Part shown: piece by piece, positions 11,590 to 16,555 of the stretch
How positions within the stretch are numbered: position 1 is the stretch's first letter
Layout of the letters: each line of letters starts with the position of its first letter
DNA from: Escherichia phage vB_EcoP_Bp7
Sequence record: NC_079181.1
DNA length: 52,615 nucleotides
Reading direction: 5' to 3' (one strand)
Translations under genes and position numbers: made by a program
Notes under the pieces: generated by a model
Databases searched by the model: none
Told to the model about the DNA's origin: nothing
What the model saw: the letters and a program-made list of their open reading frames with translations, nothing else

Positions 11590-11660
11590 CTTTGTAACTA
11601 GGTAGTCCGTCTGGTACCAGGGCGTGTGAGAACGTTCGATTCGTTCTACAAAGTTCTTTT
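11590..11660 (+). ncRNA. promoter-proximal structured RNA candidate with a tRNA T-arm-like hairpin
   Basis: CTTTGTA (11590-11596) pairs with TACAAAG (11647-11653); inner GAACG-TTCGATT-CGTTC hairpin and palindrome CTGGTACCAG; followed by TTCTTTTCG. Confidence 0.35.
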
Positions 11661-13950: not shown

Positions 13951-14319
13951 GTTGCCGATGGCAGACTTGAGAGACTAAGCTAAATCGATCTGGCATGCAC
14001 TGGAAGTTTTCCGGTGCTGCCTTGAACCCATTCCAGAGTGAGTGGGCTTCAATTTGTACATAATCCAAACACCATTGCATGAGCCTTCGACGGGAGGCAA
14101 TGTTGGGAAATTTGTTGTGTACAAATTGAAGTAGTTTTCTGAGTCTTACGACGGGCCTAAACTGCCTGAAGTTATTGCGACTGTTTTATTCATTTAAAAT
14201 AAATGCAAATGATTCTGAAATGCGAGTTGCGGCTTAATTAAATTTAAGTCTTCTCCGTGGTCTTCCAATCCCACGTAACCAAATTTGGCGCATTGTGGCT
14301 CCGAGATGTGATTAATAAA

Positions 14320-14527
14320 TCGGAGCAATAATTAATTTGTATTCTGCGATGCAATGCAGGCTTAAGTCCCTCAGTGCGCGTGGGGATGTGACAGAGTACA
14401 AACTTAATTATTAATTTGTATTCTGGTGTTGTTCGCCAAGATTGGTGCACTCATGATTGGTAGTGTTGGAGAGCGCGGAGCCTAAAATATTATCTGGCAT
14501 CTCCTACCAGAGTACAAACTTAATTAT
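14320..14527. repeat. cluster of direct and inverted repeats in a non-coding island
   Basis: cagagtacaaacttaatta occurs twice (around 14390 and 14505); aattaatttgtattctg occurs twice; together they form an imperfect palindrome at 14393-14426. Confidence 0.55.
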
Positions 14528-14968
14528 GCAGTTGGATATTTCTAGAGGACGGACGAGCACACTGGAATGTCTTCAATTGGTTTAGTGTGAGAAGCTATGC
14601 CAATATGAAACGTAACTCCTTGGGGAAGTGCTCCTCTGGATTTCCCTCCACACAGGAATCTCAAGCCTGTGGCAGCGACTTCGAAGCTGCACTGCGTAAC
14701 CTAAATTCACCCTAAAGTGAGTTGCCCTGAGTATGGAAATAAACTGCTCATAACCGATGGTATCTACAAAGGTAGATTAAATCAGGTTGCCTGTTGGTAC
14801 TTGGGTTCAACACCTGCTTGCACTCGCAAAGTAGTGCCTCGTACCTGAGATGAAGTGAGTCGGGACCATCAATCCCACGTTATGTCAAAACGCAGTAGGC
14901 GGCTCACAGATTCTACAAGCCTCGCAGTTCGGGAAAACCTGCGTTATCAAAACCCCCTCTTATTCTTT

Positions 14969-15061
14969 GGACGAGTAGCTCAGAAGGTCTGCTCCAGAGC
15001 TTAGTCAGGTAGAGCAATCTGTTAGGCAGATGTGTCGTTGGTTCGAATCCAACCTCGTCCA
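14969..15061 (+). tRNA. atypical 93-nt tRNA-like gene (isotype unresolved, possibly Leu)
   Basis: Perfect 7-bp acceptor stem (GGACGAG / CTCGTCC) and canonical T-arm (GTTGG-TTCGAAT-CCAAC), but about 20 extra nt in the D-arm region; candidate anticodons UAG or CAG depending on the fold. Confidence 0.45.
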
Positions 15062-15093
15062 CCCACTTTAATAACCGCAATACTGGAGTCCTT

Positions 15094-15479: not shown

Positions 15480-15612
15480 TTATTGCTTAATTGCACAACC
15501 AATCTATTTGGATGTTGCAGAAGTGAAAATACTATCACGCGAAACCAAAACACAGATTTTAGTCCACAATGAAACGTGGGCACAAAAGTGTTCGAAACTT
15601 ACCCGACAGTGA
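15403..15612 (+). CDS. o-spanin-like lipoprotein (69 aa), overlapping the previous gene in another frame
   Basis: Lipoprotein signal MFRKKCLAVLIAMSIVSC with lipobox IVSC; overlapped two-frame layout as in Rz/Rz1 pairs. Confidence 0.45.
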   Translation: MFRKKCLAVLIAMSIVSCSQSGFVSDYCLIAQPIYLDVAEVKILSRETKTQILVHNETWAQKCSKLTRQ

Positions 15613-16555
15613 GTGAACAAGACGGACGTCTATAACTTCCCACATGGCCTAGCTAGTTGGTGGTGTAAAAGACTGACCAAGGTGACGACAGCCAAAGTCG
15701 AGGGAGTGCGCGACTTTAAATAACGAGACTCTAGCAACTTGTTGCGATGATGGTGTAAGCCCATGCGTTTGGAAGCAGGACTCCAACTCAAACAAACCTG
15801 CAAGTTGCTCTGGGCATAACAATTAAAATTGCTGCCTCGCATTGAACGCGAGAAAGTTCAGGTAGTCACTTCCTAGAACAGTGGCCGGGAACACACCTAG
15901 ACAAAAGTGCTTGAGAACGTTAGCTCTGTCTTGCCAGCATTAATGGCACGTTGGCCGCGTAAAGGCCACAGCGTCTGACCAACGTATCGGTCGCCAAATT
16001 CAATGGATTCGTAGAGTTAATTAAACCTGCACGATGGGATGGGGATGTAGCATCCGAGGCCGACTGTGTAATTGTGAACTTCGCGTTCACCGAATCCGCC
16101 AAATCCATGGGCTAGTGCAAATGTCAGTCACTAGAAGATGTGTTGCAAAACGTCTTCCATGATGTGCAAAGTGTCAGTCACGTGCCCGCCACTTTACCTC
16201 CAACAGTTATGCCTCTGTTCAAAAGGCTCAAGAGAGCGTCTGGCATACCGTAGCGATACGGCTTAGTTGCGCTGATTGTGTTGTGCAGAAAGAAAGTTCA
16301 GGCTTTCGTTTGGGTTACTCCTCATCCCGAAGTTAGCTGGATTCAAAATCCAGACTATGTTCCTATACACATGAAATATGCAAGTCGAGGGTTCTTAATG
16401 TTCAAACATGATGCGAGCATTAAGCGGGTTTATACTTTTCCCCGATGGTCCCCATAAACAAGGCTGATTCACTTGGGCGGTTCGAATCAAATTTAATAAG
16501 TGTTTTGTAACAGTTCACGTCAGGACACTTACTTAAATTTTAACTGGAGAGAAAC

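What the first reader, a model, noticed from the sequence alone, without database searches (positions are those of the whole stretch)
14969..15061. Atypical 93-nt tRNA-like gene with an expanded D-arm region
A perfect 7-bp acceptor stem (GGACGAG/CTCGTCC) and canonical T-arm (GTTGG-TTCGAAT-CCAAC) bracket 61 nt where a normal tRNA has about 42. One fold gives anticodon stem ATCT/AGAT with loop GTTAGGC (anticodon UAG) and a ~24-nt insertion in the D-loop; another gives anticodon CAG. Both candidate anticodons would be Leu, but neither fold is canonical. It may be a non-canonical tRNA, a degraded tRNA, or a tRNA-like decoy.
Basis: seen in the sequence. Interest (0 to 1): 0.6.

Follow-up and report, generated by a model that had tools for sequence, protein, structure and literature searches.

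The report
Conserved non-decoding tRNA-shaped phage RNA
This is a real, conserved gene for a tRNA-shaped RNA in a phiEcoM-GJ1-like coliphage. It has an extra 21 bases in its D-loop and an "anticodon" loop that drifts freely, so it is probably a tRNA mimic and not the tRNA-Arg or tRNA-Leu it is annotated as. It also lies just downstream of an apparently undescribed phage tmRNA-like RNA.

Summary
Window 14969-15060 (+ACC) has a perfect 7-bp acceptor stem, a canonical T-arm and 61 nt in between. The window is a Carltongylesvirus (Chaseviridae) genome. ARAGORN and Rfam at default thresholds find no tRNA. Deleting 21 nt from the D-loop in silico restores a detectable class I tRNA.

Thirty-one related phages carry the element in 11 alleles. 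The tRNA body is nearly invariant (pi 0-0.02). The 5-nt "anticodon" loop (UUCGA, UUAGG, UAAGA, UCGAA) and the tip of the insertion vary at the neutral rate (pi about 0.17). The Arg identity base A20 is absent and the discriminator base varies (A or G).

I conclude it is a selected, tRNA-Arg-derived, non-decoding tRNA mimic. It is most likely cut out by host tRNA-processing enzymes. Its role is not established: transcript punctuation, a sponge for a tRNA-binding factor, or a link to trans-translation.

Other Chaseviridae genera carry other non-canonical tRNA-like genes at the same place.

About 760 nt upstream lies a tmRNA-like RNA with tag ANDSEMRVAA. It has no start codon, its tag is conserved at the peptide level, and it carries a pseudoknot. 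It is shared with FelixO1-like and Vi1-like phages.

Published "tRNA-Arg/Leu" annotations are not supported. Interest is moderate. The upstream tmRNA-like RNA is the more surprising item.

The parts
14969..14975 (+). acceptor stem, 5' strand GGACGAG
   Evidence: Pairs 7/7 with 15054-15060 in all 11 alleles. Pair 5:68 is G-C in 9 alleles and G-U in 2.
14976..14981 (+). U8 A9 and D-stem 5' strand GCUC
   Evidence: Invariant in 28 copies (pi 0 for nt 8-19). Pairs with GAGC at 15012-15015.
14982..15011 (+). expanded 30-nt D-loop. It holds A14, G15 and two GG motifs; 21 nt of it (14984-15004, AAGGTCTGCTCCAGAGCTTAG) are the insertion.
   Evidence: Removing these 21 nt in silico makes ARAGORN call a class I tRNA. 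Allele B carries a 20-nt version flanked by a GCTCAG direct repeat. SA91KD lacks 6 nt of the loop.
14991..15000 (+). mini-hairpin inside the insertion: GCU-CCAG-AGC
   Evidence: It contains the only compensatory change within the genus: U25-A30 in allele A against A25-U29 in allele B (GCA-UUG-UGC). This region varies at the neutral rate (nt 20-34, pi 0.169).
15012..15016 (+). D-stem 3' strand GAGC and A26
   Evidence: Invariant.
15017..15031 (+). 'anticodon' arm: 5-bp stem AUCUG/CAGAU with the 5-nt loop UUAGG at 15022-15026
   Evidence: The stem is invariant. The loop has four alleles (UUCGA in most phages; UUAGG in the window and JL1; UAAGA; UCGAA) with pi 0.167, against 0.152 at third codon positions.
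15032..15036 (+). class I variable loop GUGUC (G44, G46, C48)
   Evidence: Invariant. Its 5-nt length and sequence fit a class I tRNA, not a class II tRNA.
15037..15053 (+). T-arm GUUGG UUCGAAU CCAAC
   Evidence: Canonical. Only position 60 varies (U or C). The same 22-mer occurs in many phage tRNA-Arg(UCU), tRNA-Met and tRNA-Asn genes.
15054..15063 (+). acceptor stem 3' strand CUCGUCC, discriminator A73, then CC
   Evidence: CC follows the discriminator in 30 of 31 copies and the full CCA in about half. The discriminator is A or G.
14961..14968 (+). short 5' leader lost together with the element in phages that lack it
   Evidence: PYps3T lacks the leader and the element while its flanks align. 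The deletion was also noted in PMC8762354.

Best explanation
The element is a gene for a tRNA-shaped RNA that no longer decodes. It descends from a class I phage tRNA, most likely tRNA-Arg. It keeps everything needed for the L-shape:
- a 7-bp acceptor stem, the discriminator and CC(A);
- the T-arm;
- the D-stem, U8-A14, G15-C48, G18G19, the C13-G22-G46 triple and A26-G44.

Two changes sit at solvent-exposed places: a 20-21-nt hairpin-containing insertion in the D-loop, and an anticodon loop reduced to 5 nt (or closed by a G32-C38 pair).

Inferred mechanism: the phage T7-like RNA polymerase transcribes it as part of a long transcript. Host RNase P cuts at G1, and host 3' trimming with CCA repair finishes the 3' end. 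This releases a stable RNA of about 95 nt. The same cuts separate the structured upstream RNA region from the downstream spanin/lysis mRNA. Selection acts on the tRNA body, that is, on recognition by enzymes or factors that read the acceptor/T-arm/elbow. It does not act on an anticodon.

Shown here: the structure is compatible with a tRNA fold in every allele, the body is under purifying selection, the loops are not, standard tRNA criteria fail, and the element is dispensable. Inferred, not shown: expression, processing, the absence of aminoacylation, and the beneficiary of the mimicry.
For: Anatomy and predictors:
- The sequence shows the anatomy directly.
- Predictors fail on the native sequence. 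ARAGORN succeeds once 21 nt are removed.

Variation:
- There are 31 copies in 11 alleles, all fully paired in the cloverleaf model.
- pi is 0 for nt 8-19 and 59-68, 0.019 for nt 35-53, and 0.022 for the acceptor and T arm.
- For comparison, pi is 0.167 in the 5-nt loop, 0.169 in nt 20-34, 0.152 at third codon positions and 0.25 in the 20 nt upstream.

Identity and ancestry:
- Position 20 is U and position 35 is A in the window. E. coli ArgRS needs A20 and C35 (established identity rules). The discriminator varies between A and G.
- The nearest canonical relatives are phage tRNA-Arg(UCU) genes. In FelixO1-like phages a tRNA-Arg(UCU) occupies the equivalent slot after the same upstream RNA.

Context:
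- Other Chaseviridae genera carry, at the same place, tRNA-like genes with good acceptor, D and T arms but with long or 11-nt-loop arms instead of an anticodon arm.
- The element is absent from PYps3T-type phages.
- It has no match in 5,426 E. coli genomes.
Against: - No expression, processing or charging data exist for this element.
- Nearest-neighbour energy prefers a non-cloverleaf interior: MFE -30.7 against -24.6 kcal/mol for the cloverleaf. RNAalifold also draws a different interior, and the MFE fold differs between alleles.
- Within-genus covariation amounts to a single compensatory pair.
- In all four loop alleles the first base is U (U33) and the last is a purine (R37). The majority triplet UCG would read CGA, which makes up 15.8% of Arg codons in this phage. 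A residual decoding role in some phages is therefore not excluded.
- RNase P processing alone would not obviously require an invariant anticodon stem and variable loop.
Confidence: 0.55

Rival explanations
1. It is a working class I elongator tRNA whose D-loop tolerates the insertion. It would read Arg(UCG) in most phages and Leu(UAG) in this window, supplying decoders for codons that are rare in the host.
For: - ARAGORN calls a class I tRNA with anticodon UAG once the insertion is removed.
- tRNAscan-based annotations call it tRNA-Arg.
- U33 and R37 are kept in all four loop alleles, and the UAG allele has G37, as CUN-reading Leu tRNAs do.
- CGA is about twice as frequent in the phage (15.8% of Arg codons) as I recall it being in E. 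coli.
Against: - The anticodon would be the least conserved part of the molecule, varying at the neutral rate with four triplets for three amino acids in near-identical bodies.
- The loop is 5 nt, or has a Watson-Crick G32-C38 pair and a 4-bp stem.
- A20 is missing, and C35 is absent in the window and in two other alleles.
- Leu identity needs A73, but a third of the copies have G73.
- The Rfam tRNA model scores only 27 bits for a partial match.
Confidence: 0.12
2. It is a class II (long variable arm) tRNA-Leu(CAG). On this reading GCU(U/C)A-GUCAGGU-AGAGC is the anticodon arm and AUCUG-NNNNN-CAGAU is the variable arm.
For: - ARAGORN at default settings calls exactly this for the phiEcoM-GJ1 allele.
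- The total length of 92-95 nt is typical of class II tRNAs.
- The reading would explain why the 5-nt loop is free to vary and why AGUCAGGUA is conserved.
- UCAGGU equals positions 33-38 of E. coli tRNA-Leu(CAG) (from my own knowledge).
Against: - No D-stem can form: only 2 of 3-4 pairs in both alleles, leaving the invariant canonical GCUC unpaired (drawing; sequence).
- There is an A31-A39 mismatch and a G at position 32.
- Five unpaired nt (GUGUC, a class I variable loop) follow the supposed variable arm.
- ARAGORN does not call it for the window allele.
- The Rfam tRNA model chose the class I register.
- SA91KD has lost the CAG triplet.
- G73 occurs in a third of the copies.
- CUG is already the best-served Leu codon in E. 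coli.
Confidence: 0.07
3. It acts in trans-translation together with the tmRNA-like RNA encoded upstream. It would be either the acceptor (tRNA-like-domain) partner of a split phage tmRNA, or an anticodon-less tRNA mimic that titrates SmpB or another tRNA-binding factor.
For: - A tmRNA-like message with peptide-level conservation lies 760 nt upstream on the same strand.
- No tRNA-like domain was found for that message.
- A tRNA or tRNA-like gene follows this RNA in every one of the three phage families where it was located.
- Mycobacteriophage DS6A encodes a TLD-only molecule, and such molecules inhibit tmRNA, perhaps by titrating SmpB (PMC4131195).
Against: - The pair at 3:70 is A3-U70, not G3-U70, so alanine charging is not expected.
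- A D-stem is present, unlike in a tmRNA tRNA-like domain.
- The acceptor stem is closed within the element itself, so there is no covalent link to the message in tmRNA topology.
- PYps3T keeps the tmRNA-like RNA but lacks the element.
- In FelixO1-like phages the neighbouring slot can hold an ordinary tRNA-Arg(UCU), so the adjacency may only reflect clustering of RNA genes.
- No loop-to-message covariation was seen: Mangalitsa keeps CCUAA although its loop is UUCGA.
Confidence: 0.12
4. It is a decoy or sponge for a host anti-phage enzyme that attacks tRNAs, such as a nuclease, nucleotidyltransferase or pyrophosphokinase acting on the acceptor end or the tRNA body.
For: - It is an accessory gene with presence/absence polymorphism in a plastic region that also holds Imm and HNH insertions.
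- Selection acts on tRNA shape, not on the anticodon.
- Alleles are swapped between otherwise near-identical phages: Bp10 is 98.8% identical upstream but only 90% identical across the 121-nt query spanning the element.
Against: - No defence system or phage partner is implicated by any data here.
- The loop and insertion vary at, not above, the neutral rate, so there is no signature of an arms race.
- A 5-nt loop would be a poor mimic for anticodon nucleases.
Confidence: 0.1
5. It is a decaying tRNA pseudogene with no function.
For: It is not detected by predictors, is dispensable in PYps3T-type phages, and carries a 6-nt deletion in SA91KD.
Against: Seventy-odd of its 92 positions are invariant in 28 copies while the flanks reach pi 0.25-0.29. 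Substitutions are confined to two loops and every stem is intact in all 11 alleles.
Confidence: 0.04

Closest known systems
Canonical class I phage tRNA-Arg, for example the tRNA-Arg(UCU) genes of IMG/VR phages and of FelixO1-like phages
   Same: The acceptor, D-stem, T-arm and variable-loop architecture is the same. The D-stem (GCUC/GAGC), A26 and the T-arm 22-mer are identical. The genomic slot, downstream of the tmRNA-like RNA, is also the same.
   Different: The element has a 21-nt D-loop insertion, lacks A20, has a 5-nt loop in place of the 7-nt anticodon loop, and has an unconstrained 'anticodon'.
Stable tRNA-like RNAs of viruses that are processed like tRNAs but do not decode: phage T4 species 1/2 RNAs, MHV68 vtRNAs, MALAT1 mascRNA (from my own knowledge)
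   Same: All are tRNA-shaped RNAs without a functional anticodon. All are expected to be RNase P substrates and to carry an (N)CCA end.
   Different: There is no sequence relationship. Expression and processing of this element have not been shown. The hairpin inserted in the D-loop is not a feature of those RNAs.
tmRNA tRNA-like domain, and the 'TLD-only' gene of mycobacteriophage DS6A (PMC4131195)
   Same: Each is a phage-encoded tRNA-like RNA without an anticodon, and this one is adjacent to tmRNA-like sequence.
   Different: The element lacks G3-U70, has a full D-stem and an anticodon-stem hairpin, and is not joined to the message domain.
Intron-containing tRNA genes (the GenBank note for phiEcoM-GJ1 reads 'may contain an intron')
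   Same: Extra sequence interrupts an otherwise recognisable tRNA.
   Different: The extra sequence is 20-21 nt and sits in the D-loop. Bacterial and phage tRNA introns are group I introns of hundreds of nt in the anticodon loop (established knowledge). Mangalitsa, a relative, has no annotated RNA ligase or splicing endonuclease; the window's own proteins were not scanned.

Membership tests
Canonical elongator tRNA (Rfam RF00005) | 7-bp acceptor stem, discriminator, CCA end | tested here: met
   GGACGAG/CUCGUCC, A73, then CC. 100% paired in 11 alleles.
Canonical elongator tRNA (Rfam RF00005) | T-arm: 5-bp stem with G53-C61 and a 7-nt UUCRANY loop | tested here: met
   GUUGG UUCGAAU CCAAC.
Canonical elongator tRNA (Rfam RF00005) | D-arm with a loop of about 7-11 nt | tested here: not met
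   The D-loop is 30 nt. Removing 21 nt is needed before ARAGORN detects a tRNA.
Canonical elongator tRNA (Rfam RF00005) | 5-bp anticodon stem with a 7-nt loop and a conserved anticodon | tested here: not met
   The loop is 5 nt on a 5-bp stem (or 7 nt with G32-C38 on 4 bp). It has four alleles and pi 0.167, about the neutral rate.
Canonical elongator tRNA (Rfam RF00005) | Reaches the family score threshold or is found by a tRNA finder | tested here: not met
   27 bits against a cut-off of 29, model positions 9-63 only. Nothing at gathering threshold. ARAGORN finds 0 genes.
Canonical elongator tRNA (Rfam RF00005) | Aminoacylated and used on the ribosome | not testable with these tools
   Needs acid-gel northern blots, tRNA-seq and charging assays.
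tRNA-Arg (E. coli ArgRS identity set: A20, C35, U/G36) | A20 in the D-loop and C35 in the anticodon | tested here: not met
   GGUA gives U20. The window loop UUAGG has A at position 35. C35 is present only in the UUCGA allele. The identity rules come from established knowledge.
Class II tRNA-Leu(CAG) | D-stem, 5-bp anticodon stem, long variable arm directly before the T-arm, A73 | tested here: not met
   The D-stem forms only 2 pairs. There is an A31-A39 mismatch. Five nt separate the supposed variable arm from the T-stem. G73 occurs in about a third of the copies. ARAGORN calls it only for the GJ1 allele, not for the window.
tmRNA tRNA-like domain | G3-U70 alanine identity pair | tested here: not met
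   The pair is A3-U70 in all 11 alleles.
tmRNA tRNA-like domain | Acceptor strands at the two ends of an RNA that carries the tag message | tested here: not met
   Both acceptor strands lie within 92 nt. The tag reading frame lies 760 nt upstream.
Intron-containing tRNA (group I) | Self-splicing intron of about 200 nt or more in the anticodon loop | tested here: not met
   The insertion is 20-21 nt and sits in the D-loop. No intron family was found by Rfam.
Non-decoding viral tRNA-like RNA (tRNA mimic) | tRNA-like fold under selection without a constrained anticodon | tested here: met
   Body pi is 0-0.02 and loop pi is 0.167. All stems are intact in every allele.
Non-decoding viral tRNA-like RNA (tRNA mimic) | Expressed and processed by RNase P and 3' maturation into a stable small RNA | not testable with these tools
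   No transcriptome data were found for this phage group.

The most novel reading that the evidence does not exclude
The element and the tag-encoding RNA about 760 nt upstream (ANDSEMRVAA, window 14205-14237) form a phage-borne trans-translation module of a new architecture. In it, a message-only tmRNA-like RNA is shared by Chaseviridae, FelixO1-like and Vi1-like phages. It would work with, or be matured by, a separately folded anticodon-less tRNA-like RNA. Alternatively, that tRNA-like RNA would block host SmpB-tmRNA.
Probability: 0.12. Interest if true: 0.85.

Novelty: new variant of a known kind. Interest (0 to 1): 0.55.

Why it matters
First, the "tRNA-Arg" (or "Arg or Leu") reported for phiEcoM-GJ1, ST32, Tiny, the PYps phages and others is probably not a decoding tRNA. 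Arguments about codon supply that rest on it are therefore unsafe.

Second, the case shows that phage tRNA genes can be converted into tRNA-shaped RNAs in which only the body stays under selection. Several such non-canonical tRNA-like genes, invisible to standard finders, sit in the long "non-coding" gaps of Chaseviridae genomes.

Third, following this element uncovered a tmRNA-like RNA with a translated-type tag in three families of enterobacterial phages. A 2014 census of tmRNA genes did not report any in such phages. If it is functional, phage control of ribosome rescue becomes directly testable, for example by looking for ANDSEMRVAA-tagged peptides in infected cells.

Tried and rejected
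- **Relaxed ARAGORN settings** (-ps, -i, -mt) on the native sequence gave mutually inconsistent calls: Lys/stop with a 4-base anticodon, or Thr with a 7-nt "intron". I discarded them.
- **Thermodynamic folding.** RNAfold on single alleles and RNAalifold did not converge on one interior fold, so I did not use energy to choose between the D-stem registers.
- **Covariation within the genus** is too sparse to separate the D-loop-insertion model from the 5'-insertion model. Both are 100% paired.
- **More copies.** Pattern scans of IMG/VR and JGI metagenomes added only 7 copies and no new allele.
- **Intron idea.** Rejected on the size and position of the insertion.
- **Base-pairing between the element's loops and the upstream tmRNA-like RNA.** CCUAA in the upstream RNA against the UUAGG loop, and UUAGUCA in the D-loop against UGAUUAA upstream, are complementary in the window. 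Neither covaries in other phages, so I rejected them as chance (sequence inspection).
- **Second GGACGAG at 14551.** It could pair with the 3' acceptor strand, but it is absent from Mangalitsa and Pel53, which have the element, and present in PYps3T, which lacks it. Rejected.
- **G3-U70 acceptor for the tmRNA-like RNA.** The search within the window was too permissive and found nothing convincing.
- **Other dead ends.** A search of E. coli genomes found no match. The phiEcoM-GJ1 genome paper is not held in the library. Two literature searches found nothing on tRNA-like decoys or tmRNA-like RNAs in these phage groups.
Full report
**What the window is.** The 1.4 kb around the finding matches phiEcoM-GJ1-like myophages (Carltongylesvirus, Chaseviridae) at 90-98% identity. 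Phage vB_EcoM_JL1 is 100% identical over the 121-nt query spanning the element. These phages are lytic, about 52 kb long, and encode a T7-like RNA polymerase.

**Checking the observation.** Window 14969-15060 reads GGACGAG-UA-GCUC-(30 nt)-GAGC-A-AUCUG-UUAGG-CAGAU-GUGUC-GUUGG-UUCGAAU-CCAAC-CUCGUCC, followed by ACC.
- Shuffled windows give 0.47 T-arm-like motifs per strand. The + strand has two strong ones, this one and one at 11630.
- A perfect Watson-Crick 7-mer partner within range is a further event of about 0.6% by my estimate.
- The fold z-score is -2.9.
- ARAGORN finds no tRNA or tmRNA in the window and Rfam finds nothing at gathering thresholds.
- With permissive settings the Rfam tRNA model matches only 14998-15053 (model positions 9-63) at 27 bits, below its 29-bit cut-off.

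**How the field annotates it.**
- The phiEcoM-GJ1 RefSeq record calls the homologue a 95-nt "tRNA-Arg, may contain an intron".
- The ST32 paper calls it a 95-bp tRNA-Arg (PMC6266442). The Tiny paper reports a tRNA-Arg (PMC13340011).
- A Yersinia phage paper speaks of "tRNA for arginine or leucine" and notes that PYps3T, 4T and 16T lack exactly this gene (PMC8762354).
- Two records annotate a 71-nt tRNA-Arg. That call starts inside the insertion and relies on a poor acceptor stem in which 4 of 7 positions pair (sequence inspection).
- ARAGORN calls the GJ1 allele a class II tRNA-Leu(CAG).

The disagreement among annotations is itself a sign that the molecule is not canonical.

**Anatomy.** Deleting the 21 nt AAGGTCTGCTCCAGAGCTTAG (14984-15004) in silico turns the sequence into something ARAGORN accepts as a class I tRNA. 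The only obstacle to detection is therefore an insertion in the D-loop. In allele B the insertion is 20 nt and is flanked by a perfect GCTCAG direct repeat.

With the D-stem taken as GCUC 14978-14981 / GAGC 15012-15015, all the usual tertiary partners are present: U8 and A14, G15 and C48, GG, C13-G22 with G46, A26 and G44, U54 and A58. The 5-nt variable loop GUGUC is of class I type. The "anticodon" stem is a perfect 5-bp helix closed by only 5 nt. It can be read as a 7-nt loop only by opening a G-C pair, which leaves G32 opposite C38.

The nearest canonical relatives in IMG/VR are phage tRNA-Arg(UCU) genes, which share the D-stem, A26 and a 22-nt T-arm block. The element has no counterpart in 5,426 complete E. 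coli genomes.

**Variation.** I collected 31 copies from GenBank phages, IMG/VR and metagenomes. They fall into 11 alleles.
- The 5-nt loop is UUCGA in most phages, UUAGG in the window and JL1, UAAGA in TH26, PYps16N and FXie-2024a, and UCGAA in TH29.
- The insertion has two forms, A and B, which differ at 7 of 15 positions. These include one compensatory pair in a GCN-loop-NGC mini-hairpin (U-A in A, A-U in B).
- SA91KD lacks 6 nt of the D-loop.
- Pair 5:68 is G-C or G-U.
- The discriminator is A or G. CC follows it in 30 of 31 copies.

Pairwise diversity among 28 copies:

| Region | pi |
|---|---|
| nt 8-19 | 0 |
| nt 59-68 | 0 |
| nt 35-53 | 0.019 |
| acceptor plus T-arm | 0.022 |
| 5-nt loop | 0.167 |
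| nt 20-34 | 0.169 |
| third codon positions of the downstream gene | 0.152 |
| first / second codon positions | 0.021 / 0.011 |
| 20 nt upstream of the element | 0.25 |

The body is under purifying selection as strong as on protein-coding positions. The two loops evolve at about the neutral rate, no faster. A decoding tRNA should show the opposite pattern at its anticodon.

In addition, U20 replaces the A20 that E. coli ArgRS requires. C35 is absent in three of the four loop alleles, including the window's. A73, needed by LeuRS, is replaced by G in about a third of the copies (identity rules from established knowledge). The phage uses CGA for 15.8% of Arg codons and CUA for 6.2% of Leu codons. 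A UCG decoder would be of some use, but this does not outweigh the lack of constraint on the triplet.

**Which fold?** The cloverleaf with a D-loop insertion, and the alternative with the insertion placed 5' of a second D-stem (GCUU/GAGC), are both 100% paired in all alleles.

Energy-based prediction does not help. MFE structures differ between alleles. RNAalifold draws a non-cloverleaf interior that has no covariation and is broken in two alleles. The cloverleaf lies 6 kcal/mol above the MFE. Part of the insertion (GUCUGC) can pair with the 3' strand of the anticodon stem, which remains unexplained.

The class II Leu(CAG) reading would neatly explain a free "variable-arm" loop, but I rank it low for these reasons:
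- It cannot form a D-stem.
- It leaves the invariant canonical GCUC unpaired.
- It has an A-A mismatch and a G at position 32.
- It leaves a 5-nt class I variable loop after the supposed variable arm.
- The CAG triplet is deleted in SA91KD.

**Relatives in other genera.** Loci were fetched through the upstream gp29-like protein. At the same place, Erwinia phage Y2 (L155 4639-4749), L158 (4611-4716) and L160 (4344-4426) carry tRNA-like genes. Each has a 7-bp acceptor stem: TGGGTAG/CTACCCA in Y2, GCGGGAG/CTCCCGC in the other two. Each also has a normal D-arm (UGAC-UAAUAGGAAA-GUCA) and the same or a similar T-arm. In place of an anticodon arm they have an 11-nt-loop hairpin or a long irregular hairpin.

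Further non-canonical tRNA-like genes of 64-105 nt lie nearby in these genomes, several with an encoded NCCA. ARAGORN called only one tRNA across L154-L158, a tRNA-Cys in L156. I ran no tRNA search on L159 or L160, which hold several of these elements. Anticodon-less tRNA-shaped genes therefore appear to be a recurrent feature of this phage family. That supports reading the window's element as a mimic and not as a broken tRNA.

PYps3T lacks the element together with its 8-nt leader while the flanks align, so the element is accessory.

**The neighbourhood.** The 1 kb upstream (13951-14968) has no convincing ORF but is not featureless. Window 14205-14237 reads GCA AAU GAU UCU GAA AUG CGA GUU GCG GCU UAA, which encodes ANDSEMRVAA. 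It is preceded by AAAAUAAAU, with the same U-5 A-4 as E. coli ssrA before its resume codon. Evidence that this is a tmRNA-like message:
- Rfam gives weak tmRNA hits: tmRNA_permuted 20.8 bits and alpha_tmRNA 14.7 bits.
- ARAGORN reports permuted-tmRNA candidates with this tag only at very relaxed thresholds.
- Phage 4HA13 encodes the identical peptide with four synonymous differences. The Erwinia-type phages encode ANDNEMRAAA, L160 encodes ANDSEMRMVA, Klebsiella phage Magnus (Ackermannviridae) encodes ANDDVVLMAA and Felix O1 encodes ANDNVFLAVA.
- In three of these phages there is no in-frame start codon.
- Downstream structures covary across families: a hairpin holding the stop codons, a hairpin whose loop pairs with a downstream segment (CCAA/UUGG, UCGA/UCGA, CCAG/CUGG, i.e. 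a pseudoknot), and a hairpin with the conserved loop UGUGAUUAAUAA.

This looks like a genuine tmRNA-type message domain. A 2014 census found ssrA only in mycobacteriophages and Bacillus phage G (PMC4131195). I could not find a tRNA-like domain with G3-U70 for this RNA in the window.

In FelixO1-like phages the RNA sits inside the tRNA cluster. The gene immediately after it is either a canonical tRNA-Arg(UCU) or an atypical 78-nt version of it that has G3-U70 and ACCA. This suggests an old [tmRNA-like RNA]-[tRNA-Arg] module, of which the window's element is a remodelled descendant. It also means that adjacency alone does not prove a functional link.

**Conclusion on mechanism.** The best-supported statement is structural and evolutionary: a tRNA-Arg-derived gene has been kept as a tRNA-shaped RNA whose anticodon no longer matters. 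The features that are conserved are those read by RNase P, the 3'-end maturation and CCA enzymes, and other factors that recognise the acceptor/T-arm/elbow.

I therefore propose that the element is excised from the phage transcript like a tRNA. This would give a stable mimic and, at the same time, cut the transcript between the structured upstream RNAs and the spanin genes that start 33 nt downstream (15094).

Whether the released RNA has a further target is open. Candidates are SmpB or trans-translation, a tRNA-directed defence enzyme, or residual decoding in UCG-allele phages. These alternatives are listed with the experiments that would separate them.

**Verdict.** The finding is real and more than an annotation oddity, but the tRNA-like gene by itself is a variation on known themes. 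Interest is 0.55. The tmRNA-like RNA noticed on the way deserves its own follow-up.

Noticed in passing
window 14040-14330 (tag reading frame 14205-14237; stop-codon hairpin 14233-14248; hairpin 14256-14275 whose loop 14265-14268 pairs with 14285-14288; hairpin 14299-14325): A tmRNA-like RNA that ARAGORN and Rfam miss at default thresholds. Its tag is ANDSEMRVAA*, preceded by AAAAUAAAU. 4HA13 encodes the same peptide with 4 synonymous differences. There is no in-frame start codon in 4HA13, Magnus or FelixO1. The stop-codon hairpin and the pseudoknot covary. Homologues with tags ANDNEMRAAA, ANDSEMRMVA, ANDDVVLMAA and ANDNVFLAVA occur in Erwinia-type Chaseviridae, Klebsiella phage Magnus and Felix O1. 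No tRNA-like domain was identified.
   Followed up: partly
window 11590-11653: A 64-nt mini tRNA-like element: acceptor CTTTGTA/TACAAAG and T-arm GAACG-TTCGATT-CGTTC, in an intergenic gap. Phage 4HA13 has TCTTGTA/TACAAGA and GAATG/CATTC, giving three compensatory pairs.
   Followed up: partly
L159 5216-5312; L160 4706-4802, 4809-4911, 4989-5093; L155 6115-6208; L156 4437-4501, 6252-6345, 6357-6430: Other Chaseviridae genera carry several more tRNA-like genes of 65-105 nt with 7-bp acceptor stems and T-arms, several with an encoded NCCA. ARAGORN did not call those in L155 and L156; I ran no tRNA search on L159 or L160. Some have class II-type D-arms resembling tRNA-Leu.
   Followed up: partly
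L165 (Felix O1) 1002-1083; L195; compare L219: Right after its tmRNA-like RNA, Felix O1 has an unannotated 78-nt tRNA-Arg(UCU)-like gene. It has no normal D-arm, a G3-U70 pair, A73 and an encoded CCA, and it overlaps an annotated HNH gene. Sister phages have a canonical tRNA-Arg(UCU) there instead.
   Followed up: partly
window 14047-14133: A long hairpin: CTTCAATTTGTACA ... TGTACAAATTGAAG. It encloses a segment containing UUCGACGGGA, which is identical to E. coli ssrA nt 16-25. About 80% identity to unannotated DNA of about 100 FelixO1-like phages.
   Followed up: partly
window 14329-14414 and 14407-14527: Two long helices built from repeated arms (AATTAATTTGTATTCTG ... CAGAGTACAAACTTAATTA), lying between the tmRNA-like core and the tRNA-like gene.
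   Followed up: no
window 14923-14943 and 14950-14968: A conserved hairpin, CGCAG-TTCGGGAAAAC-CTGCG, lies just upstream of the element. It is followed by a C-rich tract and a leader whose length and sequence vary greatly between phages.
   Followed up: no
window about 15480-16550: A second stretch of roughly 1 kb without convincing ORFs lies downstream of the spanin genes. The corresponding stretch is unannotated in phiEcoM-GJ1, and in Mangalitsa it holds only one small minus-strand hypothetical CDS. In Y2-type phages the corresponding region holds tRNA-like genes. Not examined in the window.
   Followed up: no
window 14986-14992 with 15025-15031: The insertion contains GUCUGC, which can pair with the 3' strand of the 'anticodon' stem. 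The window's loop allele (A58 to G) lengthens this alternative helix to 7 bp. The resulting non-cloverleaf fold is 6 kcal/mol more stable than the cloverleaf in the energy model. Unexplained.
   Followed up: partly
IMG/VR loci L027, L028, L030, L031, L038 and others: Among 120 viral contigs sharing the T-arm 22-mer, 27 had no tRNA that ARAGORN could call around it. Some, such as L030, look like tRNA-like genes lacking an anticodon arm.
   Followed up: no
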